Made by a program: the position numbers and the translations under genes. From NCBI RefSeq assembly GCF_028641065.1, contig NC_073405.1, forward strand, positions 13,640,001-13,704,000: DNA of 64,000 bases. Direction: 5' to 3'. The notes beneath the pieces were generated by a model. The model had not been told where the DNA came from and did not search any database. It worked only from the letters and a program-made list of their open reading frames with translations. Position 1 is the stretch's first letter. Each line of letters starts with the position of its first letter. Below, piece by piece: positions 1 through 64,000 of the stretch. The DNA is from Leucoraja erinacea (Eukaryota).

Positions 1-1493
1 TCACTGCAACAGTGACACTATATTCCACACTGTTTATTTCTTTGTTGTACTACTTTTTGCACTCATGTGTTTTTTAACTTGCTTGGATAGCGTGCAAGGC
101 CATGTTTTTAAAATCAAAGATAGACACTAAAAGCTGGAGTATCTCAGTGGGACAGGCAGCATCTCTGGAGAGAAAGGAATGGGTGATGTAATGGTTTGAG
201 ACCCTTCTTCAGACTGAATCAATACCAGTGGCCTGGTTCCTATTGGTATTTTCTTGGTTAGCTTGCATAAATTAATATTGAATTGACTTTGTAACACAAA
301 TTCTGAGTCACATTAACCCAGGCTACCTCAGCAAACAAAAAGACACAAAGTACTGGAGTAACTCAGCATGTTGTTGCCTGACCCGCAGTTAATCCAGCAC
401 TTTGACTTTTTGTAAACAAGTAGCTGCGTTTTCTTGTGACTGCCTCAGCATAGTTATGGAAATGGCCTTTTGGTTTGCTGGTGCATGTTGGTGTTTTGCG
501 CCATCATCTTAATGACATCTGTTTACTGAGACAGCCATGGAAATATGGCTGCCTCAGACCATGTCCACAGTGCTGTCATGTCCAGTTGAAGAAACTGAGT
601 TATGAAAATGTAGCTTCAGCCACATGCCATAAGGTGTGAAGGTTAGTCTCTTGGGCTCATGACCAAACGCAGAATTCAGCATTGTTGAGATGAACAATGT
701 AAAATGTAAGCGATTGTGTCCTTTCCAATGCACTCAGAAACTAACAGATCAGAAGATCCCCTCAAATTCTTTATGTGCATTTTCTTGCGTAGAATATTTA
801 GATCATCTTAAAGGTTTTTATTTTAGATTCTGGTTCTCAAAGGATATTTTGTGGGAACATATCACGATGCAGTCTTAAAGTTACGTTGACCTTCACTGGT
901 CTAAAGCCAGCAAGGGAGTGACAGCTGGGCTGTTACGAAGCTGTTTGCCCAACCAGGGTTTTACTGTCTGTTCGGTGGGCTCCATTTTGTTTCAGTACCT
1001 GAGCCCTACCTCCCTTCACAAAATGAAGGCAATGTGTCTCAAACCAGTTTCAGCCGGCTGTTGCCATGGGTTCCACTGGGGCAATCAGGTGACACGGAAG
1101 GGAAATGCCTAAGTCACATGACAACCTTATACTCTCTCTTTCTCTCTCTGCCAATTAACATATAGGAAGTTTGTTCCCAGTCACTTAAATGAATGGATGC
1201 TGCCTGCTAGTTGATGGGTGGTGACAGCTCTGCCTTATTGATCGTCTTAAGCAGGATCTATAGGAGTGCAGAGGGAGCATCAGACAGATGCAACGATATT
1301 TACCAGTTCTGTTAACTCACTTAGCTGCAGATTTATGACTATGATGATTGATGATACGTGAGTTTTGGAAAAGTGCCTAGCCCAGAGTTTAACTTCCAAC
1401 TCGAGTAATTTCTTCTTTTTAAGAAATGAATAAAGGCTTCCCAGTTTGCAGAATGTCATATACATGGTTTGCAATGAAGAATAATGAGAAAGA

Positions 1494-1638
1494 TGAAATG
1501 TGTAGGAAGGAACTGCAGATGCTGGTTCAAACCGAAGATAGACGGTCTGAAGAAGGGTCTCGACCCGAAATGTCACCCATTCCTTCTCGCCAGAGATGCT
1601 GCCTGTCCCGCTGAGTTACTCCAGCTTTTGGGTCTATC
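1494..1638 (+). mobile_element. Penelope-pLTR-derived mini-element with hammerhead core
   Basis: 11-bp TSD aatgagaaaga at 1483-1493 and 1639-1649; ggt-CTGAAGA-agggtctcgaccc-GAAA-tgtc-acc. Confidence 0.8.
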
Positions 1639-2418
1639 AATGAGAAAGAGGAGGAGGCAGGCAGTCAGTTCTCTGTTCCCCAGTGATCTCAGACTGGGCT
1701 GCTGCTGCCTCTCTGAGTAAGAAGAGATTTGCACAGTTCTCAAACTGTATATTCAACTGGAAGTGAAACACAGCAAGAACAAAATTTATCTGATTTGGTA
1801 TCCCCACACTGCTCACCGTCTCTTCTCTCAGCCCCGTCTTCCATATCCACATTCCAACTCGATAAACTTGGCTGTACAACCCTTCTCTGGCCCCTTGCCC
1901 TGCAACCCTCCTCCCCAGCCCCTCGCCCTCAACCACAACTCTCCCACTGCCTCTGGCCCACACAATCCTCCTCCCAGCCCTCAAACACCCGCACTCCACC
2001 TCCTTTATAACTGCTTGGACCTCACCCACCCTCCCTATTCCCTTCTGATCCTTCCCCACACACTCCTGATACCCTCTGTGCACTCACCCCAGCCCACCGC
2101 CCTTACCGCCTGCTCCCCTCGTCTTGCTCCCACCCCCCTCCCTCTCGGCCCTCACTCCCCGTCCCCCTTCTATCCTCACAATACTCAGCCTTGTACCTCC
2201 ATTATCCCTCTGGATTTTGCCACCACCAACCCCCTCTGGGATCACCTGAGGTGCTGAGTTATATTTGAGAGGTGTTCTTGTGTGGATAAAATGGAGAAAT
2301 TGTCTAAGGATGGGTTTAGATGGATTCTCGCACTCTCGATGGATGAAATTTGTAAACATTGCCGGCCTTACCCAAAACCCTGTGTGCCCTGTTCAACCTG
2401 TAGTCCCCTCTCTTTCAG

Positions 2419-4156: not shown

Positions 4157-4411
<255 letters not shown>

Positions 4412-7063
4412 TGAGAGGTGCATTTCCTCAGTAAAGATGTACACAGCATTCAGGAACATAGAGCTTGCTCTGTGTTGTTCAGATGCTTTCAAAGGAAACA
4501 AAGGTACATGACAGAAGGACAGTAGAAAATCCATCCATGGCAGATAGATTGGGAGGAAATTCATGGCCTGCAACATCAGCTCAGGCTGATGTTGAATGTG
4601 AGTGTGTTTTGTTATTTATTCTATGTTATGACTGCAAGGTTAAACCATTTTGTTTTACTGAAAAGTGCAATGACAATAAAGTTGAATCTAATCTAATCTA
4701 AATTATCTGAAGGGTCTCCTGTACAGAATTCATGTCGGATCACGGTGAGACCACCCCCTGCTCCTGTATTTAAGCAGTGGTATTGTCCCTCCATTTTGCT
4801 TCGTTACTGACAATTGATTTTGAAATTATTTTCTAGAATCTAAAATTAGTCTATTGCTTCGATTCTGATCTGTAATTCCAGCCTTCTTGTTAATAAGCAA
4901 ATTTTCCATTGTTCTCGAAAAAATTCTGGATGGTTTACAGTTTCAAGTGATTTCAGACACATTTCTGTGATGCTTACTACCAGTAAAACCTCTGCTGGAT
5001 CAAGTTTTGGAATTGACTATTGCATGTAAGGATGAGGTCAGATCTGTGAACCTTTATTTTGATGTGATTAACTGCCCTCTGGCGGCACAGTTGAGTAGCA
5101 CAGCCATGTTGTACCAATCAGGTCAGCACACTATCATTGTGCTGTGGAATGTGGTCATGTTGGCCCCTTCACTCTGTCCTGCTGATCAAATCACATCTGC
5201 CCCTCAGCTGTATTTGCCTGCCCTGATTCTGTAATCTTTGCTTAAATAAAGTTAAACCAATCAAAACTCATTTGTTTTAAAAACGGTAAAGGCATACCTT
5301 GGTTGCCTCATTCGTAGCAAAATGTGACCATCCACACAGATGTGAATGTTAGCTGTTTTTATCTGGGATGATGTATGAATGGGGGGGATATTGCAGTTGG
5401 CCTTGGTAATCAGACTTGGGGAAGGGGAAACTCTTGCCAAGTTGTCAGCATTGTACCCTCTTCAATGCAACATACTTGCAAAAACTCGGAATTTTTTTTG
5501 AAAATTGGAGGACAGCCGTGGGCTTGGTTGTAGCACTGCATAGCATGGCATCTCACATTGTGTCACAAAGAATGGCTGCTGCATGTGCCGTCCTCTACTC
5601 TTGGTCCCCCAGCAGGAGATATGCAGTGGGGTGGGAGAAAGTAATGAGAGGGAGCTCGAGGGAATTTCAACCCCCTGAAATCTTAGCAGAAGCTTGAATT
5701 TTGTCAATTTTATGATTGAGTGCTTGTTGTAAAAGCCCAGAGTTGGCTGCCTATTTAAATGGTTTTAAGTTGTCCATTTGTTTTCTTGCACTGCCGGCTA
5801 CTGCCTTATGAACCTTCCCCAGACTTGCTCAAGCTCCCATATGAAACGTTTGAAGAGGTATCTGGTTCTAAACACCAGCCTTTTAATTCAATTTAATGGC
5901 CTTGTTAATGTGAAAGATGCTTGGCATGAATTATGCAAACAGTACAAAAATTCTAACTTTTTAGCTAGTTTTTCCATGAATACTGCTTCCCTCTGTAATC
6001 TTAAGGCAGAGCGATCCTCTGTCATCTAAATGTCTAATGTGGAATTAATTCTGCAGGCAATTCTTCAAAATCGTTCTCTGTTCAGCTCCAAGGAGAGGAG
6101 AATTGCAACATATTGATGGAGGTGATCAAGTGAAGGAGGAACAACTTAGTTCATTATTATTTTCTCGGGAACCTTGTTGGATTGAGAAATTCACCATTCC
6201 GTCCTGATTTTGCATATAGCCCATTTTATTGTCAGATGAATGTAGGATGTAGCATCTGTAAGTGGCATGACCCTTGAAGTCTTTTGTGCTCATGTATGAA
6301 GGTGGTGTGGTGTGGGGGCGTGATAGTAGAATTGTTAATCAGGTCAGTGTTTTGGTGATATGGTCACGAGTTTCTCTTTTTTCTAAAATAAAAGAAAATG
6401 ATCAGGGGTAAAAATTCTTGAAGAAACGAGAGCACAAAGAATTTCATTGTTCTATCAGGGACACATGACAATAAACTCTCTTGAACTCTTGAACTTGATT
6501 TAATGGCAAATAATTTGTTCTTGGAGAAAGATCTCAGATTCGGAAAGTAAGTAAATTACCAACTAAGTCGGGCAAAGCAGATGTGTCCTCTCCATTTTGA
6601 GTCCTGGTTGAGGTGTTCCCCACCTTTCTCTGGTTCGCTATATGGTGGCTGAAAGGAAAATGGGGTGAACAAGTGTAACTCCTCGATTAAAATCTGTAGA
6701 TTGTGTGAGGGACTGTGTTCAGGACTGCTGTTCTTTCACCTTGGTGCCTGAGTTTGAATCGGGTCTCTGCATGAAGAAACTCTCAACAGTTCTCAGATAT
6801 GGTTCAGACTTGAGACTGTTGGGTGTCAGTGCAAGGAACCATAAAGATGGTATGAAGTGATGAAGGTCCGGGTAGACGGAATAAAGGTTGCTGCGATGGG
6901 AAGATGGATGTATTGCCTTTTCACAGCTGGCATGTCCTGATTGGCAGTCTTATTGGCTTGTGTGGTTTCAACAGAATATCTCTTCAAACGGGCAGTATTT
7001 TGCATTCCTTGTATTCCTCAGCTTTCTCATGTGTGTTTGTGCTTTCTAATATTCTCTTCCCAG

Positions 7064-7153
7064 CCTGCTGTCTCGACAGGCACTGCCATGGCCACCCCAC
7101 CCCCGCTGGTACGGGGAACGCTGCATGTTCCCACTGGCAAGCCCAACTTCCAG
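7064..7153 (+). CDS. GATAD2A: GATAD2A exon, first PPPLVRG repeat
   Basis: cccag/gtcagt boundaries, 90 bp; PAVSTGTAMATPPPLVRGTLHVPTGKPNFQ. Confidence 0.93.
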
Positions 7154-8499
7154 GTCAGTGTAGAACTCGGGCCTTGCCAGGTTTTGGGTTGAACATTGAA
7201 GGTGGCGGTTGGGTGGGGACGTGCTGTGAGAATACAGCAATCAAGGTAAACCCCTGCTGGCTGAAGGAGGTCAATGAGATAGTTGGGAGACAGGTTGACA
7301 GGACCAAGCTCACAATGGTCCGAGATCAGACATTGGCATTACCACAAAACCCCACTGCTGCTAGAGAAATCGTGGTGACACTGCAAGGCTGCAATTACAA
7401 GGCTGGAACAATAAAGTGGAAAGATGCATAATCATCAAAATCTGAAAACAGAATGGCAGCAATCATTAATCTTTCCTACGTGTGTATTGTAACCCGCAGG
7501 CACTGTGTTATCATGGAATTTCGTGTAATTCCAGTAAATTTGAGCAGTTTCGTGTATCATGCAGAATTATGCTGCTCTTTTCTAATCTTGCATTGTACAT
7601 TGAGAGTTCATTTAGCAATATCGTGGTGAGTGCAGGTGGTAATGCAGACTAACAGGGAGGATTATTTCAGGGATGATATGGAAATTAGCTTTAGTGGCAA
7701 CCGTAGATGTAATTTCTAACTAATATTTGGCATAGAAGTGACTTTCCTTGAGGGTTGATCTGAGAATATTGGCATTTCTTTCTTCGGCCCTGGAAAATGG
7801 GGAAATAGAATTCATCATGTGAATAAGTGCAATGGTAGAACAATGGTAGAAATTACATCTAGGTTAGCCACTGAAGTTAATCACCCCCGAAAGAATTCTC
7901 TAATTTGTGTTCTTGTTTATGCAATTATGCATCACTAATCTAACTTCTGCAGGAGAAAACAGATTAAAGTGGTGAAAAATTATCATTTGCGAATATTTCC
8001 TAAGCGTCGCATCTGTTTGATCTCTCTTTTTAATGTCGTGTGTTACTGAACTTGGTTTGTCAAGGTAAACAATAAGCGAGCCCGGTATTCCGACTGCGCA
8101 TGCCCAGATCATATGTCACTAACTATAAACAGTCTCGGCATTGGTGGTGCTGCATTGTGCGCAGGCTTGCGTTTCATCTGTGGTCGGGGTTGGGGTCAGC
8201 TCTCCGTCGCTGCGGCCGCTGTTGAGTTGCTGCTGGGATGTCCCCATCCCCTCCACAGTGTCTCGTCCCTGTCCTGAGGTATCCGTGGTGGCTCTGGACT
8301 GGCGGGGCGGCCCTGGACTTGCAGCCGGCCGGCCATGGGCAGTCCGGGCGCCCGCTGAAGCTGCTGGTGCTGTTGGTGGTGCTGGCGGCAGCAGCAACCT
8401 CCTCCCCCTCCCTTTCCCAGCCCCAAGCCCAGAGTACGGTCCAGCTCCAGGTCGGGGATGAAGGCTGCCCACCGCGTGGCCCAGTCGAGCTCCGGGCCG

Positions 8500-8660
8500 G
8501 ATGAGGCCGAGCCCAGGCTGGCGCTCTGGTGCAAGGGAGGGTGGGGCCCTCGCTCCTTGGTGTTGTGGATGAAGTGGCAGCGGATACCATAGGGGCAGAA
8601 CGTCTTGTACTTGGGGTGGTGGCTGAGGGAGTGCAGCTCGGCCAGGCCGTCGCCGTAGGG
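8500..8660 (-). pseudogene. ZFP36/TTP-family tandem CCCH zinc-finger gene fragment with internal deletions
   Basis: YGD-GLAELHSLSHHPKYKT-FCPYGIRCHFIHN-...PPLHQSASLG versus family pattern [48 protein letters not shown]...LxxSxSF; no upstream in-frame ATG. Confidence 0.8.
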
Positions 8661-10469
8661 GCCTATTGGGGAGTGGGTTCCTCTGGAGTTGGAGCGGGGT
8701 TGGGCTGGAGTTAGCGCTAGCTGTGAGTTCTCCGTGCCGTGCTGTGCTGTCTGTGGGTTCTCCGTGCTGTCTATGGGTTCTCCGTGCTGGCTGGAGGCCG
8801 GTGTCTTGTCAATCCAGACGTCTCCAACCGCCCCCCGAGCCGGGATGGGACACTCGAGTGTGGGGGGGGTGCGACCAGGGATGGTCCAGCAGCTGTTCAG
8901 CAGCACTTGCGGCGCCGGTGACACGGATTCGATATTGGCTGCGGATGAGGCACGGTTCTGCGGATGAGCACTTTGATTTTTATTGATAGCGTTCGACCTT
9001 TGACAAATCCCATGATTCCTTTCATTTTTCGGAATACCGAACTCGCATATACTGATAGGCAAGTAGGATATTCTTTTGGCCTAAAATTATTCCACAGGTG
9101 TTCAAAAGGCTTCATTTTCACTTTTAACAAGTCTTCCCTCAGTTTTAATGTCAAATGTTTTGCAACGGCGCCTTTTATACTTTCACCAAAACAATGATTT
9201 GTTTTCATTTTTAGTTTCTTACTGACTTTTTTCTTGCATTGCCTACATTTTATCTGGTATTGGTGGCAAGCGATGCTTGTGTCCATTGGTGTGCATCAGT
9301 TCATACATCAGCCCATCATTGTACCACAACCCTGCTAGACATCCATGGTTGTGGGTGAATCCCTGTCCCTGGAATGAAAAGCTTTATCAGTTGTAAGGCT
9401 TCAAGTAATGGCATTGTACGTCTCCAAAGTAAGTGCATAAGATGAAAAAATACATGTTTGAAGTGTTCATCTTCGGAAGTGGTATTTGAAGAGAGCGAAA
9501 CAGACCACTTCATGGCTCAATGATTCTTCTATTGGACGAGATTCAAAGGAAGCTTGTACGATGCAAAAATAGCATCACATGGCTATGTGCAGGTGTAGCA
9601 AATAAATACTAATACAAATAAACTGAGATACTGGTTTTTACCAAAGATAGAAACAAAATCCTGGAGTAACTCAGCGGGTCAGGTCCCATCCACCAATACA
9701 TCCAATTAGTTCAAATGGTAATTGTACCCGCATCATGACAGCTATAAGAAATTCTCTGTGAATACCTTCAGTAATTCTTGAAGGTCAAAACACAAATGGT
9801 GACACATCGTGTTTATAGAGACATTTAACAAGCGCTTAACAGTGGCACCCCCATTGTCTCGCAGAAAGCAGAGATTTTAATAGATTTTTTTTCACCGAAA
9901 ATCAGAATCCGAATTACAAAACATGGGGGGGGGGGGGCACGTGCCCCCCCCCCCCCCCGCGGGATTTCTGTCCATGGTGTCACCCTCTCATGTGGATACC
10001 AGTGATCCCAAGCGACTGTTGAAAGAAGAGCAATTCTCTTCCTGACCTGCTCAATCATTATTTCATAAATCCAGGAATTAGAATAAAGATCAGCCAATTG
10101 TTAGCCTTTCCGTGTAACTTTTGGGATCTTGCTGATCGTAATGCCCATCGAATATTAAAGCATTGCATTGCCTGTAAAAATGTGGGGGTAATGCATGGAT
10201 GTGTAAAATGCTAGATATCTTTAGCATTTTCCCCACGGAGATACAATGAGCAATACTGCAACTCCCAAACTAGAGCTGCAATTTCAAGTATCTTTAATTA
10301 GTGTTCTATTCCTCTCCACATGAACTCCATTAGATAAATCTTGACAGATTTTTGAGAGACAGTTGGATGAATGATTCAAAGGTATAAGAAGCATCTCAGA
10401 AGATGGGCAGGATTTAGACCCGTTACTGTACTATACCCTTCTATGAATTCTATGAACTTTTCTGCAAGT

Positions 10470-10562
10470 CTGAGGTAGACAAAAATGCTGGAGAAACTCA
10501 GCGGGTGAGGCAGCATCTATGGAGCGAAGGAATAGGTGATGTTTCGGGTCGAAGCCCGCCTC
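10470..10562 (-). mobile_element. Penelope-pLTR-derived mini-element
   Basis: 11-bp TSD tttctgcaagt at 10459-10469 and 10563-10573. Confidence 0.75.
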
Positions 10563-10751
10563 TTTCTGCAAGTTTGTATCTGCAGCATCCATATCCACTA
10601 TCATGCTGACTGCTTGCAAAACGTTCAGCTAGTTTAATTGGAGTTGCATTCATGGCTTGTACAGATCCTTCAATGTTTCTGATTTTAATATCTTCTCTCA
10701 AACTGAAGATGTAGGAAAGCCTGTAGTTCCTGGTTTCTGTCTCCCTCCTTT

Positions 10752-13936: not shown

Positions 13937-14844
13937 TTATTCTAGCACTTTTTGTCCTTCACCAGGATAATGCCTGGATTGGAGGACTTTAGTTATGGGG
14001 GAAAATTGCAGGGATAAGACAGGCTTGGCTTGATTTTTGAAGGAGTCTGGGGGGGGAGGGGGGGAAGATTGTTCCCGATGTTGGGGAAGTCCAGGACCAG
14101 GGGTCACAGCTTAAGGATAAAGGGGAAATCCTTTAAAACTGAGATGAGAAGAACTTTTTTCACACAGAGAGTGGTGAATCTCTGGAACTCTCTGCCACAG
14201 AGGGTAGTTGAGGCCAGTTCATTGGCTATATTTAAGAGGGAGTTACATGTGGTCCTTGTGGCTAAGGGGGTCAGGGGGTATGGAGAGAAGGCAGGTACGG
14301 GATACTGAGTTGGATGATCAGCCATGATCATATTGAATGGCGGTGCAGGCTCGAAGGGCCGAATGGCCTACTCCTGCACCTAATTTCTATGTTTCTATGT
14401 ACAGCACAAAAACTGCCCCTTCAGCCACCATGTCTATTACCAACCTTTATACTCATTACACTGTATCATTTTGTGCCTTGTTTATTTAAGTCTCTGTCTA
14501 AATACAGTAATTGTATGATTCCACCACCTTTTTTGCCTGTATATCCCAGATATCAACCATTGTGCAAAATAAGACTTGCATCTCAGAACCACTTTAAATC
14601 TCCTTCCTATCCCAAAGCAATGTCCTGTTGTCTTTGATATCCCTATCATGGGGAAAAAGCATTTTGATTATTTACTCTTATATATGCCTCTCAAACTTTT
14701 TTCTACAGAGATCATACCCCCCCTCCCCCCCCAGACTCCTTCAAAAATCAAGCCAAGCCTGTCTTATCCCTGCAATTTTTCCCCATAACTAAAGTCCTCC
14801 AATCCAGGCAATATCCTGGTGAAGGACAAAAAGTGCTAGAATAA
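13937..14844. repeat. 128-bp inverted repeat (13937-14064 / 14717-14844)
   Basis: Arms are reverse complements with 2 mismatches, including matching G8-A-G7 / C7-T-C8 runs. Confidence 0.92.
14065..14400 (+). mobile_element. CR1 LINE 3' end
   Basis: Same C-terminal motif and ttctatgtttctatgt tail. Confidence 0.9.
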
Positions 14845-14981
14845 TTCAGTAGGTCAGGCAGCATCTCTGGAGAACAAGGATGGTTGACGTTTTGGGTCAA
14901 GATCCCTCTCCGAAGAGTCCTTTGGTCTTTTGACTTTGTGTCCTTTTGTGTATTAACCAGTATCTGCAGTTCTTTATTTCT
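14824..14981. mobile_element. Penelope-pLTR-derived mini-element, internally inverted
   Basis: 14-bp TSD aatatcctggtgaa at 14810-14823 and 14982-14995. Confidence 0.8.
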
Positions 14982-16173
14982 AATATCCTGGTGAATCCAC
15001 TTTGAAACCTGTTCAGAGCCTACACCGTACTCTCAAGTGCTGCGTGACCAGTGTTTTGTAAACTTGCAACATTACAACCCATAACTGCAGAATAAACCAC
15101 CTTTGGTTCCAAGTACACAATAACATGAGCAGGTTATTCACCTGTGTGGTTTAAGCGGTTGGAATTCGACATGGCCTTGGAGGAATGTAAAGAAAGGAGG
15201 AAAGATCACGCGGGAATTAGAATGGCTAAAAGGGGCCTCAAAATGTCTTTGATGAGACAGATTAAAGAAAATTCCCAGTGTTTGTGGAGAGAGACAGTAA
15301 ATTTATGTTACAGGTGGGTAACTCGCTGATCGGTACGTGTTGCAAGTGTACACTTGGAATCAAATAATTGAGTTGAGATGATAGAGCCAATACATTTTCA
15401 TGGTGATATTTTCATTCAGGGACAGCCATGGACACCGAACCATCAATAAATCATGGTCTAATTTTTAATGCCTTTTTTGATGCTAGTTGCTTCTCAACTG
15501 CTGATGCAGGTGCAGTTCTTTTGTTCCCAGGGAAAGATTTGTGATACACACATCCTCTCGATAACCTTGTAATCAGAGGACCAAGTGTTGAGATTTAAAT
15601 GCAATACTCGATCATATGCCTTACCTAATTTCACCAATTACTTTCCATTAAAGACCTCCCTTCAGTGAGTTTCTCATTACACTGTATCAGAGCTAGCTGA
15701 AATGTTATAAAACAATGTGAACAATCTCAAATCCACTTTCTCTGCAGAGTAGTCCCAGGCTCTATCGGGTCACAAGTGTCAGTATGAACATCTGAGTTGA
15801 TTTAGTGCCAGGGACCTGCAGGGTCAGGATTTTGATGGTCATGTTCCCACTGCACCAGTTTGCAGTTTGTCAACTGCAACAGTCCTAATGTTACGGCTGA
15901 ATTAGATTTACATATCTGTAATTTCCCCAATGTGGCAATGTGTCCCAAGTGGGATATATGCTGGACATTCCTTCATGGTCTCAGTGTTACTATCCTTGCC
16001 TGACTGTATAATCTGCCCATCTTCAACATGTGTGCTGCAACTGTTCAGGAAGGGGTCTCATCACCACAGCTAGAAATAGGAAGTTATTGGTTTACTGACA
16101 ATACCTACCTCCCAAGTATTACTACGAGGCTCTTAATTGCCAGCTGAGGGCCATATTGGAACAGCCCCAGTGA

Positions 16174-16826: not shown

Positions 16827-18207
16827 GTTACACAAAAAAGCTGGAGAAACTCAGCGGGTGCAGCAGCATCTATGGAGCAAAGGAAATAGGCAACGTTTCG
16901 GGCCGAAACCCTTCTTCAGACTGATCGGGGGCGGGGGTGGGTGGGGACAAGAAAGGGAAAAGGAGGAGGAGCCCGAAGGCTGGGGGATGGGAGGAGACAG
17001 CAGGGGGGCTGAGGAAGGGGAGGAGACAGCAAGGACTAACAAAATTGGGATAATTCGATGTTCATGCCCCCGGGGTGCAGACTCCCCAAACGGAATATGA
17101 GGTGCTGTTCCTCCAATTTCCGGTGCTGCTCGCTGTGGCCATGGAGGAGACCCAGGACAGAGAGGTCGGAGACGGAGTGGGAGGGGGAGTTGAAGTGCTG
17201 AGCCACCGGGAGGTCAGCTTGGTTATTGCGGACCGAGCGGAGGTGTTCGGCGAAACGATCGCCCAACCTCCGCTTGGTCTCACCGATATAGATCTGCTGA
17301 CATCTAGAGCAGCGGACGCAATAGATGAGGTTGGAAGAGATGCAGGTAAACCTCTGTCGCACCTGGAACGATTGCTTGGGTCCTTGAACGGAGTAGAGGG
17401 GGGAGGTAAAGGGACAAGTGTTGCATCTCTTGCGGTTGCAAGGGAAAGTGCCCGGGGAGGGGGTGGACCAAGAGGGAAGGGAAGAATTGACAAGGGAGTT
17501 ATGGAGGGAGCGGTCTTTGCGGAAGGCAGATATGGGGGGAGATGGGAAGATGTGGCGAGTGGTGGGGTCACGTTGGAGGTGGCGAAACTGACGGAGGATT
17601 ACTTTTTGTATGTGACGGCTGGTGGGGTGAAAGGTGAGGACTAGGGGGACTCGGCCCTTGTTGCGAGTGCGGGGATGGGGAGAGAGAGCAGTGTTGCGGG
17701 GTATGGAAGAGACCCTGGTGCGGGCCTCATTTATGGTGGAGGAGGGGAACCCCCGTTCCCTGAATAATGAGGACATTTCAGATGTCCTGGTGTGGAATGC
17801 CTCATCCGTGGAGCAGATGCGGCGTAGACGGAGGAATTGGGAGTAGGGGATGGAGTCCTTACAGGAAGCAGGGTGGGAAGAAGTGTAGTCCAGATAGCCA
17901 TGGGAGTCAGTGGGTTATGGGGAGTCTGCACCCCGGGGGCATGAACATCGAATTCTCCCAATTTTGTTAGTCCTTGCTGTCTCCTCCCCTTCCTCAGCCC
18001 CCCTGCTGTCTCCTCCCAGCCTTCGGGCTCCTCCTTTTCCCTTTCTTGTCCCCACCCACCCCCGCCCCCGATCAGTCTGAAGAAGGGTTTCGGCCCGAAA
18101 CGTTGCCTATTTCCTTCGCTCCATAGATGCTGCTGCACCCGCTGAGTTTCTCCAGCTTTTTTGTGTGTAACCTTCGATTCTCCAGCATCTGCAGTTCCCT
18201 CTTAAAC
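16827..18207 (-). mobile_element. Penelope-like retroelement, 5'-truncated, GIY-YIG endonuclease region, inverted pLTR
   Basis: ORF 17036-17776 has CNTC, NLIYCVRCSRC..IYIGETKRRLGDRFAEH, VAQHFN and GMNIE; about 260-bp inverted repeats; 15-bp TSD acagttgaaagggag at 16812-16826 and 18208-18222. Confidence 0.92.
18074..18108 (+). ncRNA. Candidate minimal type I hammerhead ribozyme in the Penelope pLTR (mirror copy on - at about 16890-16923)
   Basis: CUGAAGA + A + stem II gggu-UUCG-gccc + GAAA + palindromic (A)ACGU(U) with a GUU triplet; helix I is weak. Confidence 0.6.
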
Positions 18208-21284: not shown

Positions 21285-22869
21285 AATAATAATACATTTT
21301 ATTTATGGGCGCCTTTCAAGAGTCTCAAGGACTCCTTACAAAAATTTAGCAGGTAGAGGAAAAACATGTAAGGGGAATGAAATAAATAGTAGAGACATGA
21401 CTAGTGCACAAAGTAAAGACAGAATACAATTCAAAACACAATATGAGGCAATTAATGCACAGATGAAAAGGGAGGGGGACGTGGGGCTAAGGATAGGCAG
21501 AGGTGAAGAGATGGGTCTTGATGCGGGACTGGAAGATGGTGAGGGACACGGAATTGCGGATCAGTTGGGGGAGGGAGTTCCAGAGCCTGGGAGCTGCCCT
21601 GGAGAAGGCTCTGTCCCCAAAACTGCGGAGGTTGGACTTGTGGATGGAGAGGAGACCGGCTGATGTGGATCTGAGGGACCGTGAGGGTTGGTAGGGGGAG
21701 AGGAGGTCAGTGAGATATGGGGGGGCCAGATGGTGGAGGGCTTTGTAGGTGAGGACCAGGATTTTGTAGGTGATCCGGTGGGAGATGGGAAGCCAGTGAA
21801 GTTGTTTGAGGACTGGAGTGATGCGATGCCAGGATTTGGTGTGGGTGATGAGTCGGGCGGCTACGTTCTAGGCCAGTTGGAGTCGGTTGACGTAGGTGGA
21901 GCTGATGCCAAGGAGAAGTGAGTTGCAATAGTCCAGTCGGGAGGAGACGAAGGCATGGATGAGTCTTTCAGCAGCGGGAGGTGTGAGAGAGGGTCTGAGT
22001 TTGGCGATGTTGCGGAGATGAAAGAAGGAGGTTTTAATGACATGGCGGATGTGAGGCTCAAGGGAGAGGGTGGAATCAAAGATCACGCCAAGGTTGCAGG
22101 CCTTGGGAGATGGGGAGACAGTGGTGCCGTCGATGGTGAGAGTGGGGTTATTGATTTTGCTGAGTGTGGCTTTGGCGCCTATGAGGAGGAATTCTGTCTT
22201 ATTGCTGTTGAGTTTGAGGAAGTTATGTTGCATCCAGGTTTTTATAGCTGACAAACAGGAGTTGATATGGGAGGTGGGGGGATTTGGTGCCGAGGTAGAT
22301 CTGGGTGTCATCGGCGTAACAGTGGAAGTCCAGGTTGAAGTGGCGGAGTATCTGACCAAGGGGGAGGATGTAGATGATGAAGAGGAGGGGGCCGAGTACG
22401 GAGCCTTGGGGAACGCCTTGAGTGACTGTGGCTGTAGCAGAGTTGTGGTTGTGGAGAGAGATGAAGTGGGATCTGTTGGAAAGGTAGGAACGGAGCCAGC
22501 TGAGTGCAGAGCCTTCAATGCCGAGGTCTTTGAGTCTAGTGAGCAGGATGTTGTGGTTCACTGCATCGAAGGCTGCGCTCAGGTCGAGGAGGATGAGGAT
22601 GTTGAGGGAACCAGTGTCAGCAAAGGTGAGGAGGTCGTTGAGGACTTTGAGGAGAGCAGCTTCTGTGCTATGGAGGGGCGAAAGCCAGATTGGAGGGGTT
22701 CAAGTAGGTTATACGCAAGGAGGTGGGAATGAAGTTGCGACGCAACGATACGCTCCAGGGTTTTTGAAAGAAAGGGGAGGTTTGAGATTGGGCGGTAGTT
22801 AATGAGAGAGGAGGGATCAAGACCAGGTTTCTTTAAGATTGGTGTGACAGCAGCAGTTTTGAAAGCGGA
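21285..22869 (-). mobile_element. L2-clade LINE, 5'-truncated
   Basis: GVPQGSVLGPLLF, HCYADDTQIY, FFHLRNIAKLRP and SRLDYCNSLL motifs; (TAT)n tail; 10-bp TSD tagttttaat at 21275-21284 and 22870-22879. Confidence 0.9.
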
Positions 22870-37958: not shown

Positions 37959-38864
<906 letters not shown>

Positions 38865-41627: not shown

Positions 41628-41840
41628 GAAGATAGACACAAAAAGCTGGAATAACTCAGCGGGACAGTAACTCAGCATCTCCGGAGAGAAGGAAAGGGTG
41701 ACGTTTTGGGTCGAGATGGTCTGAAGAAGGGTCTTGACCCAAAACATCACCCTTCTCTCAAGAGATGTTGCCTGTCCCGGTGAGTTACTCCAGCTTTTAG
41801 TGTCTCGGTTTAAACCAGCATCTGCAGTTCCTTCTTTCAC
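41628..41840. mobile_element. Palindromic Penelope-pLTR-derived mini-element
   Basis: A reverse copy and a forward copy fused at the hammerhead stem (gggtcgagat|ggtctgaagaaggg). Confidence 0.75.
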
Positions 41841-42371: not shown

Positions 42372-43289
<918 letters not shown>

Positions 43290-46234: not shown

Positions 46235-46355
46235 ATGGCGTGCAAACGGATTACTCAAGAGACCTTTGATAATGTTGTGCGAGAGAACATAATCGAGTTT
46301 GAGATGGAGCCAGAGGAGGCTTTGAAAGAAGCAATAGAACAGTTTGAATCACAAG
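46235..46355 (+). CDS. ARMC6: ARMC6 first coding exon
   Basis: aaaATGG start; [41 protein letters not shown]; gtatgt donor; acceptor AG at 46218-46219. Confidence 0.93.
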
Positions 46356-47037
46356 GTATGTAGATCTGTTAATCATTGTTCTCTGTCGTTTTAATCCCTG
46401 CCCTGCTTTGAATAAATAAACACACACATTGGGTGTTCTGTTTGTAGACGCTGAACTCAGTGCAACAAAGCAACTCTCAGCCTGTCAGTGGCCTCCTGCG
46501 CTCTTACACTGAAACAGCACATCTTCCAGACAGGAAGGTTGCAGCCTTTGCAACTTTATATTGAATTCAACGAGTTTGGGGAACTCTGTTTCAGAATTAT
46601 TCAGTTCTGCTAAGTTATCCATCTATATTATTGACTTACTAAAATGGCCTCCTTTACATCATTGACACCAAGTGTAGACTGGTCAACCATTTTGCCAAAC
46701 ACTTGCGCTCAGTACGCCAAGGTGTGTTGGATCTCCTATTTGCTAACCATATCACATACCCCTATCCTCCCTCTAGCTTTACATTTCACTCCTCTCTTTA
46801 TCTAATGCTGTTTTGTCTCCTTTTCACCTCCAGCCTTTGTCACTGACCACCCATGTGCCAATCAAATAGCCCCCTTACTTGTACCACCTCTAACTTGCCA
46901 GGCTTTGCCACATCCCCAATTTCCCCCCCCCCCCACCATAGTCTCCTCTATTCTATCCGTCTGAAGAAAGGTCCCAATCCGAAAGTTCACCTATCCATGC
47001 TCATCTGAGATGCAGCCTGACCTGCTGAGTTATTCTA

Positions 47038-47165
47038 TCTGAAGAAGGGTCTCAACCCGAAACGTCGCCTATTTCCTTCGCTGCATAGATGCTGCCTCAC
47101 CCGCTGAGTTTCTCCAGCATTTTTATCTACCTTCGATTTTCCAGCATCTGCAGTTCCTTTTTAAA
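47038..47165 (+). mobile_element. 128-bp Penelope-pLTR-derived mini-element nested in an older copy
   Basis: 16-bp TSD ctgctgagttattcta at 47022-47037 and 47166-47181; begins at tCTGAAGA. Confidence 0.85.
47039..47070 (+). ncRNA. Candidate minimal hammerhead ribozyme core
   Basis: CUGAAGA-a-gggu(cuca)accc-GAAA-CGUC. Confidence 0.55.
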
Positions 47166-48190
47166 CTGCTGAGTTATTCTAGTACTTTGTGTCCTGTGTA
47201 AATCAACATCTGCAGTTTCTTGTTTCTACACTTTGTTCAACTGTCCATTGGATGTTTTCTTCAGCAGCTTTTCACCCTGCCCTCGCCCTATCCGAAGCTC
47301 TCCAGAAATCCCACATCTGATTGTTTGGAAATCCAAATGGTGGGTTAGCTCTCACTCGTTGTGATCAGCCATGGAATGAGTTGTCCAGTCAAGTGAATTG
47401 TTTTCTGCTTATCAACATGCAAAGTACATTGCCAAATGTTATTTATTTTACACCATATCTGTAATTTTTCCTCTCACAAACTCGAGCCCTGCTTTCTGTG
47501 CTCCCACTCCTCCTCCTACCTTCTATTTTCTACTCCATTTTTTTTTAAAACTCACCTTTCTGTTTAACGGTGATGTTCTATTATTGGTTATAGGTTTCTG
47601 TTTCCCGCTCCCTTTAAACTCCATTTCCCACTCTCTTTAAACTAACCCAGTTTCTTATTTTCAAGCCCTGTTTAAATTCACCAGGTTCTCTTGCTGGTCC
47701 CATAAACTTGAGTCATGTCAAGTTGAGTTTATTATCCTATTCTAATTATGTTTTAAAATGTTGCTTGTGGCAGCATCACGTGTTTCTTTAGAATATTTAT
47801 TGCTCTACTGTGTAACGGGCAGGTGGGACTAGTGTAGATGGGACATCGTGGTCGGCATAGGCATATTAGGCCGAAGAGCCTGTTTCCATGACTCTTTATA
47901 AAGGAAAGTGTCAGGATATTAATAGAACAAGCATTCAATATTTGGAAAAACAGATAATCCAACATCACCAAAAGCCCAAGTGTGTTAGGTTATTTATGTT
48001 TTCCCCTTGGTTCTGTCCAGCCCTATCTTCCATGTAACTGAAAACAAACTTGTTTTCTCATTCCTACTTTTGATGAATTAACTCCTCTTTCAGTCAATCA
48101 ATGCTGCCTGAATTGCTGTGAGAGTATTTCCAGCATCATCTGTTTTTATTTCAGATTTCCATCATCTGCAATTTTTATTATTTTGATAAA

Positions 48191-49475: not shown

Positions 49476-50046
49476 GCTCTCGATGCACTTCAGAAAGCCC
49501 TGGATATCTTGGCTCTTGACGAAATGGGGGATCACTTGAGTAAATTCACCGAACAATGCAGTCTTGATTTTGCTCACCGCCACCTGGCGGCTGAAAAGTC
49601 CGCCTACGCCACGGTCCTGTCCTGCTGCAGAGCAATGATGGCCGATGGGCTTGGCCTGGTGAAGGGAGTCCAAGCCCTGGCGGCACTGCTAGACGGCCAA
49701 CCGGACCTCCTTGACTCGGAGGGCAAGCACCTGCTCATCGAGATCCTGAAGCAGCACCGAGAACACGTGGAGCTGAACGCCACCACCATCCGCGCCATTC
49801 GCTACAGCTGCCTGAAGCATGAGCAGAACCGGCAAGACCTGGTGCAGTTCGGGGCACTGCCACTACTGACGGCTGCCATTGTGAATCACGGCACCAGCCC
49901 CAAAGTGGTCAGAGAGGCGGCTTTCGCCCTGAGGGTCATGACCTACGATGACGACATCCGGGTGCCCTTTGGCCGCTCCCACGATCACGCAAAGTTGATC
50001 GTGGTGGAGAACAATGGACTTCGGATCATCATCGAAGCTGCAAAAG
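49476..50046 (+). CDS. ARMC6: ARMC6 coding exon 3 (large armadillo-repeat exon)
   Basis: ttgtag/gtacaa boundaries; LLDGQPDLLD, CLKHEQNRQDLV, LRVMTYDDDIRVPFG. Confidence 0.96.
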
Positions 50047-50389
50047 GTACAAATGGATCCTCCCGCACTGTCCCACCAGTTAATCTACCAAAATTGTCAC
50101 AAAAAATCTGCTAATTATTTGAGGAATATGCGTTTAGACATGGAATGTTTCCCTCTGCACAAAGAAGTGTTCCATCATACACAAAGAAAAGAACCAATAG
50201 GACACAAAGTGCTGGAGTAACTCAATGAGTCAGGCAGTATCTCTGGAGAATGTGGGTATGTGATGTTTTTTCAGATTGAAAAACTAACATCTGCATTTCC
50301 TTGTTTCTGCAAAAGAAGAAATACACAGGTTAAAACAGGTCTGCACATTGTTCCCATAAACAAAAACAGGTAAGGGATTGCATTAAATA

Positions 50390-58458: not shown

Positions 58459-60338
58459 TGTCTACCTTCGATTTAAACAAGCATCTGCAGGCTTTCTTAC
58501 ACTGACAGTATGCTTTCTGTGGTGCATGTGTAGAAATTTAACACTCATCTTCACGCAGAGGTCAACGGACCAATTGACCTACTGACACGGTGGGGATGAT
58601 GAGGAAACCCCTGCAGTTCCAGGCAGAACGTGCGGACTACACACGACCGCACCTGAGGTCAAGATAAAACTGGATCGCTTGAGCTATGAGGCAGTGATTC
58701 CAAGCTTATGGGTATACAGGGCATCACAGAATCAGAAAGAGACACTATGGTTAGTCTTTTGTGACTGCACTGGTTGAGAAAGAGTTGTTCAGCTTGAACT
58801 CACATTCCCACATCTCCACATATAGGTTGTGGCACAGTGGGAGCTTAATCAGGTACTTGCCAAAGCTTCCGCTGACACCACCCTTTCTAGTAGTGGGTTC
58901 CACATCCCCACTTGCAGGAGCATTGAATAATAGTTGTCAAATGAGGATACTGCATTATCATAATAAGCTACTCAGATGAGGTATTATCAGAACTTGGGAA
59001 TTTGTTCACTGAGGTTGCTACTTCAAGATGTCACAACGTTGCACTCTTATGAAGGCATGGGTGCCCCAACACCAGTTGGCAGGAGAGCCCCGACACTGTA
59101 CCAACTGTCAGTACTTGACGCTAAGTCAGGTTAAATTTCAGTTGTACATCAAATGTGCACTTCTATTACAGATTCATCACAAGAGTAATCCTCCATTATT
59201 CTCTGGAACGTTAAAGTGCCAGTGACATCTTTATGTCAAAAGTAAGTAGTAACTCAAACGTTCCTATATTTATGGCAAACGTGCTGGAATAGTTGACCTC
59301 CTTCATCCTATTAACAGCAAATAATTGTATTTGTGTGTTAGAATTTGTATAATCCTAGGGTTAAAATATCAAGCCTGTATCCAGGTGAGGATATACAGTC
59401 AGCCTGTCAATCTGTAGGTAAAAGTTTTGTAATGGCAATTTTAAACTATTCCAAGCTTCAGCTTTGCATTGCCGTTACTGCACAAGCAGTGGGGAGTGAT
59501 CGTACGTAGCCGATAGCAAAAACGAATCCTTCAGTAATTCTTTCCAGTTTAATTGATTATTTATTGAAATAGTTGTACAGACAAAGAAGTAAACATACCA
59601 GATCCTCTTTATCCTTATACAAATTCTTACTATCTTACTATACTGTTTTTACTATCAGATCTGGTAAAAAAACTATATTCCTTCTCTCCTGCTCTTTTTG
59701 TCATCATCTTCTGGTCTTAGATATGAAACAACCCCTTTAGCCCCTTTTACTTGCATCTGAAAAGTGGTGCAACTGTGCCAATCTGATTTGACCAAAGTTA
59801 GCGGGCTTCATGTCCAATTTGAATTCCGCCATCTTGTTGAGATCTGCTAACCATCCTATCCATCGCTGAGAGAAGGTTTGTGATATGTTCTCATCCCATC
59901 CGGTCTTTCCGTACAGAGCTCGATTGACAGCAGCAGCAGGGTAGCCATTTTCATCCCTGCTTTCGTTGTCTCTTCTCAGGGGACCATAGATGACCCATCC
60001 GAGTCAGATCCTCACAGCAAATGGTCTGTCCCCTTGGCTGTTGACTAGTTCCCAAGGTTCCAATACCTTTGGAGCATTTGCTCCGATGAGTAGGTTGATG
60101 CCAGAGTCTATTTAGGAACCTTGATACCCTTCAAGTAAGGCCATTGTTTCAGGTCTTCCTGCTTGGGAATGTTTAGATGAGAAACAGGTATGGTCTTATG
60201 TGTAAACACATCAGATAGTTGTGTAAAATCGTCTTTGTCCAGGCTAGATATTTCCAAACCTGAGATATGATGACTGAACACAGGCTTCTCTTCATTCATG
60301 GTACGCAAGAGCATCTTAGTCTTTGTCTATTCTTGCTA

Positions 60339-61656: not shown

Positions 61657-63606
61657 TAATGGGAAGATGCAGGTTTTATCACCGGCCCCAATATGCGCAC
61701 ACATCCCAGACGTGGAAACAGCATCACTCTTAGTTGGCTTCTCATTCTGTTCTGTATGCTCCAGCTTCTTCTCTGTGTTCTTCTGTTCAGTGTGAAGTAA
61801 TTCCGGATGATCTTGTTTGCACACACCACAAGTCATACGACTCTTTCAATTTCTACTCGTGTGTCTCTTCAAACATCCAAAGCATCGAAGTCCATCTTTT
61901 CTTTATGCCCCTTCTGCTTGACCAGTCGACACTGCCCTAATGTGTGACCACTTATATTACAGAATGAAGACGCATCTCTTCTCAATCCATCTGTTGTCAG
62001 ATTTCCTTGCACTGTTGTTTCTACAGGTAATACAGTTGTTGCAAAACTGTTTCCTTTCCGTCCTGATCTTTCTCTTGTACCAAAAGTAGAACCGTTGACA
62101 GTTGCCATTGGTCTAGGATCCTGAATGCTTCTAAAAAGTGGATCTGACATTATCTCCACTTACCACAGCAAGAAATCCACCAGATCAGGAAACATACCTC
62201 GACGTCCATACATTTTCTGTATCTGACATGTACTATCCCTCCTCTTGTCTCTAAGCCTGTATGGCAATTTTAGGATAGTCTTCATATTGTTAGTAACGTT
62301 CATTTTCTCCATATAGGTGAGATGTTCCATTGCATTGCAACAACCTCGAAAAAACAGCGAAAACACATGCAATGCCTTCACATCCTCTGCCTTGATAACT
62401 GACCAAACAAAAGCCTTGCTCATGTATGCACTGGCAATCTTGTGTTCATTACCAAAATATTTTTGGTAATGAATACAATGCGTACGATCACTCCTCCCTG
62501 CTTGTGTAGTAACGGCAATGGAAAGCTGAAGCTTGGACTAGGTTGAAAATGTCATTACAAGTGTTAACACCTTGATTTCACAATGCTGAACCATGCTGGA
62601 GGGGCTGAATGGCCTGTTTCTGTTCCTTTGACATTCTACTGGTGTATGTGCTCTTGTTCTGTTCTGAAGGACAAAACTCAGCAGCAAATCATCTGATGCA
62701 CTAAAAATAGCAGCGGGCACACTGGGAAGATCTATAACTGTAACTCTCCCCCAGATGTTTGCACTTTGTCAGCATGAGTTGCAAAAATAACTGCAGGCCA
62801 GAGTTTACCTGACTCATTCACTGAGGTGGGTGAGGCACTTGCATGAAAGCACAAACATAACCTCCTGCCTTCATGGGAATACTCTTCTGGCTATTGAAAG
62901 GGTCTGAAAGCTAGGTCATACAAAGGTGATGACAAGATGCCCTTCACAAACTGGGGGCAGTCTTTAACTCTACAGAGTATGGTTGGTGAAGTCATGGGAC
63001 AAATAAAACCTTAAGAAAGATCCTAATGGATTTCAGCTTGACTAGATGATTCAAGGCACAAAAAAGCTGTGTGGTGGTGGTTTTGGAGCTAAGTGTTGTT
63101 GAAATTGGTGTTCCAGCCCATAGGTTGCATAGTATTCAGTTCCCAGAATTTCCTGTGTACAAGGAATGAGGGGGGAGGGGGCGGGGGTGCAAGTCAGCAC
63201 TTGCCTTTCAATGGCATTTGTTCTGCGAGGTTAAAAGATTGAATGATGAAGGGACATGACTAGTCAAAAGAAACATTTCCAGAGAAAAGGCAGAAATCTC
63301 TCCTTTGATGCTGGGCGTCTATGAAATTAGACATTTCTTGGGTAACGGTACAATTAGAGCAGGACTCAAAAGGAAGGGAGTGTGGCTCCTGAAAATACTG
63401 GGGTGCAATTCCCCAAAGGTGTTCAGGAGAGTTTTCTTAAACAGTATGTGGAGGCTCCCACACGTGAGAAGGCAACGGTGGATCTAGTATTGGGAAATTG
63501 GGAGGGGCAAGTTAATGAAGAGTGTGGGAGGAGAGTTTGGGAGCACGTTTATAATGTTTAAGATACATGGATCGATCCAAAAATGTTTAAGATAGTTATG
63601 GCTATA

Positions 63607-63795
63607 GGGGAACTGCAGATGCTGGAGAATCCAAGGTTACACAAAAAAGCTGGAAAACTCAGCTCAGCACTATGGCGAAGGAAATAGGCAACTTTTTCGG
63701 GGTAAACCCTTCTTCTGTCTGAAGAAGGGTTTCGGCCCGAAACGTTGCCTATTTCCTTCGCTCCATAGATGCTGCTGCACCTGCTGAGTTTCTCC
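63607..63795. mobile_element. Palindromic Penelope-pLTR-derived mini-element
   Basis: Forward arm is nearly identical to 18075-18175; contains CTGAAGA-agggtttcggccc-GAAAcgtt. Confidence 0.8.
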
Positions 63796-64000
63796 AGCTT
63801 TTTTGTGTAACCTTCTCGCTAATGTTGACTGGAGCAGGTTATATGAGGGGAAAGGAACATCGACCAAGTGGGATGTTTTCAAAAATGTACTGAAGAAAGC
63901 TCAGGATGTGTACATCCGTGTTAGAGTGAAGGGCAAAGCAGGCAAACGTACAGGAAGCTTCGCTGAGAGGGAAATTGAGACGTTAGTCAAAAACAAGTAG

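What the first reader, a model, noticed from the sequence alone, without database searches (positions are those of the whole stretch)
47022..47181. Hammerhead-bearing mini-retroelements with their own TSDs (retrozyme-like family derived from Penelope pLTRs)
Seen: the most abundant short repeat in the window carries CTGAAGA-a-[stem-loop gggtc-tc-gaccc or gggt-ttcg-gccc]-GAAA-(C/T)GT(C/T). Intact or decayed cores occur near 190(-), 1547, 3608, 16900(-), 18077, 34035, 41720, 46960, 47039, 53392, 55420, 57978 and 63719. The same sequence is the terminal part of the pLTR of the GIY-YIG Penelope element at 16827-18207. Units of only 90-160 bp have their own TSDs (11 bp at 1483/1639, 11 bp at 10459/10563, 14 bp at 14810/14982, 16 bp here), and this 128-bp copy starts right at the core. 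Established: CUGANGA...GAAA...UH is the hammerhead core, and Penelope-like elements carry minimal type I hammerheads with a palindromic helix III thought to cleave as dimers. Inference: a very high-copy non-autonomous ribozyme-retroelement family that places potential self-cleavage sites in both orientations in the GATAD2A and ARMC6 pre-mRNAs.
Basis: partly seen in the sequence, partly recalled or inferred. Interest (0 to 1): 0.8.

Follow-up and report, generated by a model that had tools for sequence, protein, structure and literature searches.

The report
Short Penelope copies with fixed start
This is one of several hundred thousand short end-pieces of a Penelope-like jumping gene; they carry a stripped-down hammerhead ribozyme motif but mostly begin just in front of it rather than at its cut site, which suggests they are stopped first copies of the element's own RNA rather than a separate ribozyme-driven family.

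Summary
47038-47165 is a 128-bp piece with a 16-bp TSD and an intact minimal hammerhead core. It matches the pLTR end of a GIY-YIG Penelope-like element (Neptune/Nematis-type linker). About 8x10^5 related pieces lie in the genome (147 hits in 400 kb); roughly one in nine keeps an intact core.

The 5' boundary is not random. 22 of 44 copies that reach the core stop within 9 nt of it (2.7 expected), and 8,050 of 20,681 genome-wide copies leave the parent sequence within 3 nt. That boundary lies about 30 nt upstream of the predicted cut site, where 0 of 85 copies start.

Short and long copies share identical consensus in four subfamilies, and dispersed copies are not tandem, so they are not retrozymes. 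Helix I is 1-2 bp and RNA reads show no cut ends.

Best reading: by-products of Penelope reverse transcription that start at the tail site near the RNA's 5' end and run off a transcript beginning at an initiator-like TCAGTC ('strong-stop' cDNAs). Main rival: stalling at a 3'-splice-site-like tract. The boundary is shown; its cause is inferred.

The parts
47022..47037 (+). left TSD (16 bp), itself part of an older copy of the same repeat
47038..47165 (+). 128-bp short PLE copy, element positions +1..+128 (T before CTGAAGA = +1); 4 differences from its cluster consensus; sense in an ARMC6-like intron
47039..47066 (+). minimal type I hammerhead motif: CUGAAGA 47039-47045, extra A 47046, stem II 47047-47058 (4 bp + CUCA loop), GAAA 47059-47062, palindromic ACGU 47062-47065, predicted cut after C47066; helix I reduced to one U-G pair
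   Evidence: numbering from PMC4209133
47132..47165 (+). 34-bp PLE 'tail' (stretch between the two preferred 3' ends)
   Evidence: present in the forward pLTR 18173-18207 and absent from the inverted copy ending at 16827; PMC11167929
47166..47181 (+). right TSD (16 bp)
46960..47235 (+). older, decayed copy of the same repeat, split by the insertion; it also starts at G|TCTGAAG
16827..17920 (-). 5'-truncated PLE: ORF remnant 17036-17914 (thumb, CX4CxxC linker, GIY-YIG), 3'UTR, hammerhead motif, no tail
17921..18207 (+). opposite-strand pLTR copy: ORF end, pyrimidine-rich UTR (81% C+T over 57 nt) ending in ATCAG|TCTG at 18075/18076, hammerhead motif, 35-bp tail; 15-bp TSD at 16812 and 18208
1483..1649 (+). 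TSD-flanked composite unit: inverted tail piece plus forward copy starting GG|TCTGAAG at 1546
10459..10573 (-). TSD-flanked 93-bp copy that starts inside the motif (no CTGAAGA), no tail
14810..14995 (.). TSD-flanked unit: inverted decayed arm plus forward tail
63603..63815 (.). head-to-head pair, both arms ending at the same boundary near 63716-63718
41629..41840 (.). head-to-head pair; forward arm starts GG|TCTGAAG at 41720 and carries the tail
46235..46357 (+). first coding exon of the ARMC6-like host gene; next Arm-repeat exon lies within 49476-50111
   Evidence: gene name recalled

Best explanation
The short copies are by-products of an autonomous endonuclease-positive Penelope-like element (Neptune/Nematis-type), not a separate ribozyme-driven family. 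Shown: the element's protein inserts copies with ~15-bp TSDs; their 3' ends fall at two fixed sites flanking a 35-bp tail; about half of the copies that reach the hammerhead motif end at -2/-1/+1, just in front of it. Inferred: the template RNA begins there, at an initiator-like TCAGTC in the pLTR. In a full transcript the tail lies ~95-132 nt from that 5' end and ~35 nt before the ORF's ATG. Reverse transcriptase primed at this 5'-proximal tail runs off the RNA after 95-132 nt. The resulting 'strong-stop'-like cDNA is either integrated as it is (short copy), folded back (inverted pairs), or passed to the identical 3' pLTR and extended (long, variably truncated copies). The hammerhead core rides along uncut; it is conserved in the source elements and decays in the copies.
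For: Pile-up: 22 of 44 core-reaching copies end in -5..+4, 13 at -2/-1, against 2.7 expected (p~2e-15). Genome-wide 8,050 of 20,681 exact core 27-mers leave the parent within 3 nt upstream. Same boundary in 17 of 29 closest relatives of this copy and in older subfamilies: 54 of 77 core-reaching random hits lack the UTR, 37 of those keep AG. None of 85 start at the cut site. Short and long copies have 0 of 93 consensus differences in 4 of 6 clusters. Tail is followed by the ORF start in tandem junctions, as in the anole element, where RT starts internally at the tail and uncut RNA is the substrate (PMC11167929). TSD-to-core gaps are mostly 0-6 nt, so no host exon is carried. D. virilis Penelope has a TATA-less Inr/DPE promoter inside the pLTR (PMC2377424).
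Against: No transcript start was seen: 4 RNA runs gave no begin/end peak. The modal end is -1 (G), not the purine A at -2 that an initiator would predict, and older families often extend to -3..-5. The cap-G signature is weak: a single extra G in 3 of 12 direct GG-class copies, and 13 of 30 GG copies are explained by inverted-arm microhomology. Only 1 of 14 ORF-linked 5' pLTRs examined starts at the core, and 61 junction copies keep upstream ATCAG; this needs the unproven strand transfer or read-through RNA. Tandem units spanning -55..+220 also need template beyond -2. In D. virilis the site abutting helix I is a splice acceptor, not the start.
Confidence: 0.5

Rival explanations
1. Stall, not run-off: the RNA continues upstream, but reverse transcription stops where a pyrimidine tract plus CAG (a 3'-splice-site-like element bound by splicing factors or by the element's own protein) begins. 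The short copies are then ordinary 5'-truncated insertions with one strong truncation hotspot.
For: All subfamilies have a pyrimidine-rich tract ending in CAG|TCTG. In D. virilis the intron's 3' end maps to the 5' end of helix I, and PLEs retain introns. The spread of ends (-5..+4) fits a footprint. Most ORF-linked pLTRs extend upstream.
Against: No conserved donor is evident upstream (the GT-like site overlaps the stop codon and is GC in one subfamily). No spliced copy among 80 boundary loci. No joint into +1 among the 15 of 92 joints shown, and the largest loose end at the boundary is a genomic TSD junction. ORF-linked cDNAs pass the site more often than tail-primed ones, which a fixed block does not predict.
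Confidence: 0.25
2. SINE-like propagation: short copies keep an internal Pol II promoter (Inr plus an ACGT DPE-like motif at about +27..+30 from the A) and the tail, are transcribed, and are copied in trans by the PLE protein. They would be a non-autonomous family, but one that does not depend on ribozyme cleavage.
For: Short copies outnumber long ones (54 of 77). One tail variant is enriched in short copies (10 of 22 vs 3 of 22, p=0.045, one uncorrected test). The ACGT resembles the Penelope/LINE DPE RGACGTGY.
Against: No short-only lineage: consensus equals that of long copies in 4 well-sampled clusters, and the two short-only clusters at K=10 are unrelated deletions. The anole protein needs ORF sequence downstream of the tail, which short copies lack.
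Confidence: 0.15
3. One reading: retrozyme-like elements whose RNA is cut by the (dimeric) hammerhead, circularised and reinserted.
For: Core invariant across 6 cluster consensuses (0 of 11 vs 31 of 86 other columns, p=0.015). Rare head-to-tail arrays of 265-281-bp units each with a full motif exist. Retrozymes are proposed to derive from pLTRs (bioRxiv 2026.07.22.740005).
Against: Dispersed copies start 30 nt before the cut and none of 85 at it; only 705 genome-wide copies have a purine directly before the post-cut 27-mer. Array junctions differ between units and are not at the cut site. Helix I is 1-2 bp and the hammerhead fold is not the minimum-energy fold as monomer or dimer. No read ends at the cut. 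Stem II changes are one-sided only.
Confidence: 0.05

Closest known systems
Canonical EN+ Penelope-like elements, Neptune/Nematis type (Craig et al. 2021, PMC8557442)
   Same: Single ORF with RT and C-terminal GIY-YIG, CX2-5CxxC linker motif, partial tandems, inverted 5'-truncated arm, 30-40-bp tail, hammerhead in the pLTR.
   Different: Truncation is described as variable; here about half of core-reaching copies end within a few bases of one site, and the pieces number about 8x10^5.
Minimal type I hammerheads of metazoan PLEs (Cervera and De la Pena 2014, PMC4209133)
   Same: Core, extra nucleotide before helix II, G10.1-C11.1, palindromic 15.2-16.2; mostly dispersed single motifs attributed to truncated PLEs.
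   Different: Helix I is 2 bp in the parents (as in D. virilis) rather than 4-5; helix II is 4-5 bp; about 9x10^4 intact cores against 2,000-9,000 reported per genome; no copy boundary was reported in the parts read.
PAc, Poseidon of Anolis (Frangieh et al. 2024, PMC11167929)
   Same: Two RT start sites flanking the tail, template continuing into the ORF, uncut RNA copied, no RNA-seq ends at the cut site.
   Different: In PAc the ORF starts inside the ribozyme; here the ATG lies about 35 nt after the tail. 3' junctions here show 1-6 nt microhomology with the target. Short fixed-start copies are not described in the sections read.
Metazoan non-LTR retrozymes (PMC7761336; bioRxiv 10.64898/2026.07.22.740005)
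   Same: Short, non-coding, hammerhead-bearing, related to pLTRs; a few tandem arrays here fit the form.
   Different: Retrozymes are tandem units processed at the ribozyme into circular RNAs; these copies are dispersed TSD-flanked monomers bounded upstream of the cut and identical to the autonomous element's end.
Retroviral minus-strand strong-stop DNA and first strand transfer (recalled, no call)
   Same: Priming near the RNA 5' end, run-off after ~100 nt, repeat at both RNA ends allowing transfer.
   Different: Here priming is by a nicked target, the product is integrated, and the transfer is only inferred.

Membership tests
EN+ Penelope-like element (parent) | RT plus C-terminal GIY-YIG in one ORF | tested here: met
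   GIY-YIG E=0.0015 in the window ORF and RVT_1 E=0.0005 in L160, both below Pfam's curated cut-offs; L161 holds RT and GIY-YIG in one frame; atlas neighbours at 0.97 carry RVT_1/GIY-YIG
EN+ Penelope-like element (parent) | partial tandem forming a pLTR, inverted 5'-truncated arm, 30-40-bp tail | tested here: met
   (43 of 85 copies have an inverted arm)
Neptune/Nematis clades | CX2-5CxxC motif upstream of GIY-YIG | tested here: met
   CNRKRCNTC; definition
Neptune/Nematis clades | RT phylogeny with reference elements | not tested
   no named reference set was on hand
Minimal type I hammerhead of PLEs | CUGANGA / GAAA / UH core, extra base before helix II, G10.1-C11.1, palindromic 15.2-16.2 | tested here: met
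   47039-47066; invariant in 6 of 6 cluster consensuses
Minimal type I hammerhead of PLEs | helix I of 4-5 bp (2 bp in D. virilis) | tested here: inconclusive
   2 bp in 12 of 16 random intact cores, 0-1 bp in 4, 1 bp in the 47038 copy
Minimal type I hammerhead of PLEs | compensatory covariation in stems | tested here: inconclusive
   only one-sided U-G to U-A or C-G changes between subfamily consensuses
Minimal type I hammerhead of PLEs | self-cleavage as dimer or with protein | not testable with these tools
   no read ends at the cut in 4 RNA runs, which such libraries may miss
Rfam hammerhead families | match to an Rfam covariance model | tested here: not met
   0 hits at gathering score in the window; no hammerhead family at E<=10 on two stretches
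Non-LTR retrozyme | tandem units, each with a type I hammerhead | tested here: not met
   the TSD-flanked copies are monomers or inverted pairs; met only by rare arrays such as L262, with 8 core-led units in the stretch fetched
Non-LTR retrozyme | unit ends set by the cleavage site | tested here: not met
   0 of 85 start at +29/+30; 705 genome-wide vs about 8,000 at the upstream boundary; array junctions elsewhere
Non-LTR retrozyme | abundant circular RNA | not testable with these tools
   oligo-dT and single-cell libraries only
Independent non-autonomous family (SINE-like) | own lineage distinct from the autonomous partner | tested here: not met
   0 of 93 consensus differences in 4 clusters; 5 and 9 in two old clusters with only 5 long copies each

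The most novel reading that the evidence does not exclude
The short copies are integrated strong-stop cDNAs. Penelope-like elements prime at the tail near the 5' end of an RNA that starts right at the hammerhead, and the ~130-nt hammerhead-to-tail segment acts like a retroviral R region for a strand transfer to the 3' pLTR. This would give a mechanism for pLTR and partial-tandem regeneration, which Schostak et al. 2008 call unexplained, with several hundred thousand genomic fossils of the intermediate in one vertebrate genome.
Probability: 0.25. Interest if true: 0.75.

Novelty: new variant of a known kind. Interest (0 to 1): 0.45.

Why it matters
How Penelope-like elements copy themselves, regenerate their pseudo-LTR and use their hammerhead is still open. 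A base-precise 5' boundary in thousands of young copies pins down either the start of the template RNA or a strong RT stop. It also shows that uncut RNA is what gets copied in vivo, in line with the one in vitro study. Both points can be tested with standard 5'-end mapping and the published in vitro assay. The repeat also covers roughly 3% of this genome. A role in cutting host pre-mRNAs is not supported.

Tried and rejected
Rfam: no hammerhead match. Loose core pattern: near chance. Cleavage-defined ends: rejected. A second cut at the AUC just upstream: rejected by inspection, since helix III and helix I cannot pair with it and one subfamily lacks the triplet. Capture of host exons by splicing to the CAG: rejected for the copies seen (gaps mostly 0-6 nt; the top RNA loose end is a genomic junction). 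Cap-derived G: inconclusive (GG/YG 0.66 vs 0.43 expected, GAG/WAG 0.47 vs 0.38, largely microhomology). Lower per-copy divergence of core columns (0.096 vs 0.157) is not taken as selection, because copies were chosen by alignment to the core. No RNA holder was listed; the raw RNA runs laid carry no usable strand information in the bulk libraries and are dominated by host transcripts, so they say nothing firm on the start site or on cleavage. PDB search of the GATAD2 exon found nothing. Lunse et al. (PMC5785218) is not held; its result is taken only from a review passage. Paper searches that found no description of this repeat or boundary: (0 papers); the library lacks most subscription journals and Repbase/Dfam, where the repeat may already be catalogued. 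Supplements of the papers were not read; those of the bioRxiv preprint (one chondrichthyan genome surveyed) may list related families.

Full report
Observation. The insert at 47038-47165 is 128 bp, flanked by an exact 16-bp repeat at 47022 and 47166, and begins one base before CTGAAGA. It landed inside an older copy of the same repeat. A profile finds 25 copies in the window, 13 on + and 12 on -, including all 13 listed sites; 5 keep an intact core. The host genes run on +: a p66/GATAD2-type gene and an ARMC6-like gene whose intron holds this copy in sense (names partly recalled). Rfam has no match. Numbering below: the T before CTGAAGA is +1, the G before it is -1, and the predicted cut follows +29.

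Parent element. 16827-18207 is a 5'-truncated Penelope-like element with an opposite-strand pLTR and a 15-bp TSD. Its ORF remnant carries CNRKRCNTC before the GIY-YIG motif, the CX2-5CxxC linker of the Neptune and Nematis clades (PMC8557442, passages); no tree was built. Related loci hold RT and GIY-YIG in one frame. In tandem junctions the order is ORF end, ~115-nt pyrimidine-rich UTR ending in ATCAG, hammerhead motif, 35-bp tail ending near +132, then about 35 nt to the ATG. The genome has 2.19 Gb; my impression that it is a cartilaginous fish is recalled, not tested.

Copy number. In 40 stretches of 10 kb at fixed positions on the 14 largest contigs, the profile gave 147 hits (0 in the reversed control), covering 2.8% of bases. 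That extrapolates to about 8x10^5 pieces (standard error about 11%). 16 had an intact core, about 9x10^4 genome-wide. One tail 27-mer alone matches 8,039 times.

The 5' boundary. I scored 85 of the first 100 listed tail matches (13 units of one array left out, 2 not scored). 41 end inside the unit (>+4; 26 with an inverted arm), 22 end in -5..+4 (13 at -2/-1), and 22 extend further, spread over about 1,000 nt. With the truncation rate seen downstream, 2.7 of 44 were expected in that 9-nt window (p about 2e-15). Genome-wide counts of the bases before an exact core 27-mer were: not G 1,788; GG 1,536; YG 2,333; GAG 762; WAG 1,631; parental CAG 12,631. So 8,050 of 20,681 leave the parent within 3 nt. 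Corrected for chance matches this gives about 2,300 ends at +1, 4,900 at -1 and 1,500 at -2, figures that still include point mutations. 17 of the 29 closest relatives of the 47038 copy start at -4..+1 (this set was chosen for covering the whole query). In the random sample 54 of 77 core-reaching hits lack the UTR and 37 of them keep AG. TSDs of 9 bp or more were found for 65 of 85, median 15, usually with 1-6 nt of microhomology at the 3' junction.

The ribozyme does not set that boundary. A type I cut leaves the core on the upstream fragment, so cleavage-derived copies would start at +30. None of 85 does (nearest +26 and +32). Genome-wide 705 copies have a purine before the +30 anchor; that anchor's total was not counted but is similar to the core anchor's in 484 kb (11 vs 9), so at most about 6% could start there, mutations and fold-backs included. 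The motif fits the published minimal PLE hammerhead (PMC4209133, abstract, results and discussion read) and its 11 core columns are invariant across 6 cluster consensuses against 31 of 86 others, though other blocks are invariant too. Helix I is 2 bp in parents and 1 bp in this copy, stem II varies only one-sidedly, and the active fold is not the most stable as monomer or dimer. Published metazoan motifs show no monomer cleavage and low dimer cleavage; the anole motif needs protein and is dispensable for insertion (PMC11167929, main text read). Four RNA runs laid on L246 showed a depth step at the boundary, no begin/end peaks, and no joint into +1 among 15 of 92 joints shown. The largest loose end there is a genomic copy with its own TSD. 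These libraries cannot exclude rare cleavage.

Not a separate family. Short and long copies have identical consensus over 93 columns in 4 clusters; two old clusters with only 5 long members each differ at 5 and 9 (386 copies from all loci, a partly biased set). The short-only clusters are unrelated deletions. One hint the other way: a tail variant is commoner in short copies (10 of 22 vs 3 of 22, p=0.045). Non-LTR retrozymes are defined as tandem units processed into circles (PMC7761336, passages; bioRxiv 10.64898/2026.07.22.740005, parts 1-3 of 5 read). Only rare arrays here have that form, such as L262 with units of 270-281 bp, and their junctions vary between units and lie away from the cut. 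The 177-bp array L137 mostly lacks the core.

Mechanism. Shown: PLE-made insertions, two fixed 3' ends, a sharp 5' boundary upstream of an uncut core. Inferred (0.5): the RNA starts at the initiator-like TCAGTC (consensus recalled); RT primes at the tail nearest that end, as the anole protein does with ORF sequence downstream, and runs off after 95-132 nt. D. virilis Penelope has its Inr/DPE promoter in the pLTR (PMC2377424, passages and discussion). Against this: no start site was observed, the modal end is -1, the cap-G signal is inconclusive, and 13 of 14 ORF-linked pLTRs examined extend upstream (61 junction copies with ATCAG against 76 matches of the looser pattern). A strand transfer to the 3' pLTR would explain the last point but is unproven. 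The main rival (0.25) is a stall at the pyrimidine-CAG tract, where D. virilis has a splice acceptor. SINE-like spread from an internal promoter gets 0.15 and the retrozyme route 0.05.

Novelty. Hammerheads in pLTRs, dispersed truncated copies, tails and inverted arms are known. I found no paper describing the fixed upstream boundary, within a library that lacks many journals and repeat databases. An unchecked note of this scan reports the same clustering in another genome (e1-7858714); it is a lead, not support. Verdict: new variant of a known kind, interest 0.45.

Noticed in passing
window 37962-38864 (-) and 42375-43289 (-): Two intronless Ser/Thr kinase ORFs of about 300 aa in tandem between the GATAD2-like and ARMC6-like genes (Pfam Pkinase E~1e-65); a duplicated TSSK6-like gene by recalled synteny.
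   Followed up: no
L262 (G000:C23:3112850-3115100); also G000:C9:41121167-41124195 and L245: Head-to-tail arrays of 265-281-bp units, each with the full hammerhead motif, both helix I strands, tail and ORF start; junctions differ between units. These are the best local candidates for true retrozyme-like arrays and for dimer cleavage tests.
   Followed up: partly
L137 (G000:C1:24092.5-24094.8 kb) and L096: Arrays of 177-209-bp units running from the ORF start back to +36, +22, +1 or -2, as if RT re-primed repeatedly near the RNA 5' end.
   Followed up: partly
L141, L189, L151 (and L081): Insertions with different 5' ends at the same target site within another repeat, whose sequence resembles the bases just after the tail; suggests target preference by microhomology.
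   Followed up: partly
L263:1524-1620 (G000:C37:7620.6 kb): A short copy with an intact core and its own TSD inside a highly expressed transcript; it gives about 730 of 8,000 reads laid in each bulk RNA run. Strand unknown.
   Followed up: partly
runs X21 and X22 on L246:267-342: Single-cell reads lie about four times more often on the minus strand of the element; could reflect antisense bias of intronic copies or internal priming on the purine-rich antisense tract.
   Followed up: no
window 22226-22699 (-) and 59740-60003 (-): Remnants of other retroelements: an RVT_1 domain and a Pao-type A17 peptidase domain.
   Followed up: no
L063:~5020-5200: Three tandem 42-bp repeats of the hammerhead head alone; similar 33-34-nt back-jumps to the boundary, some with one extra G, appear in RNA reads.
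   Followed up: no
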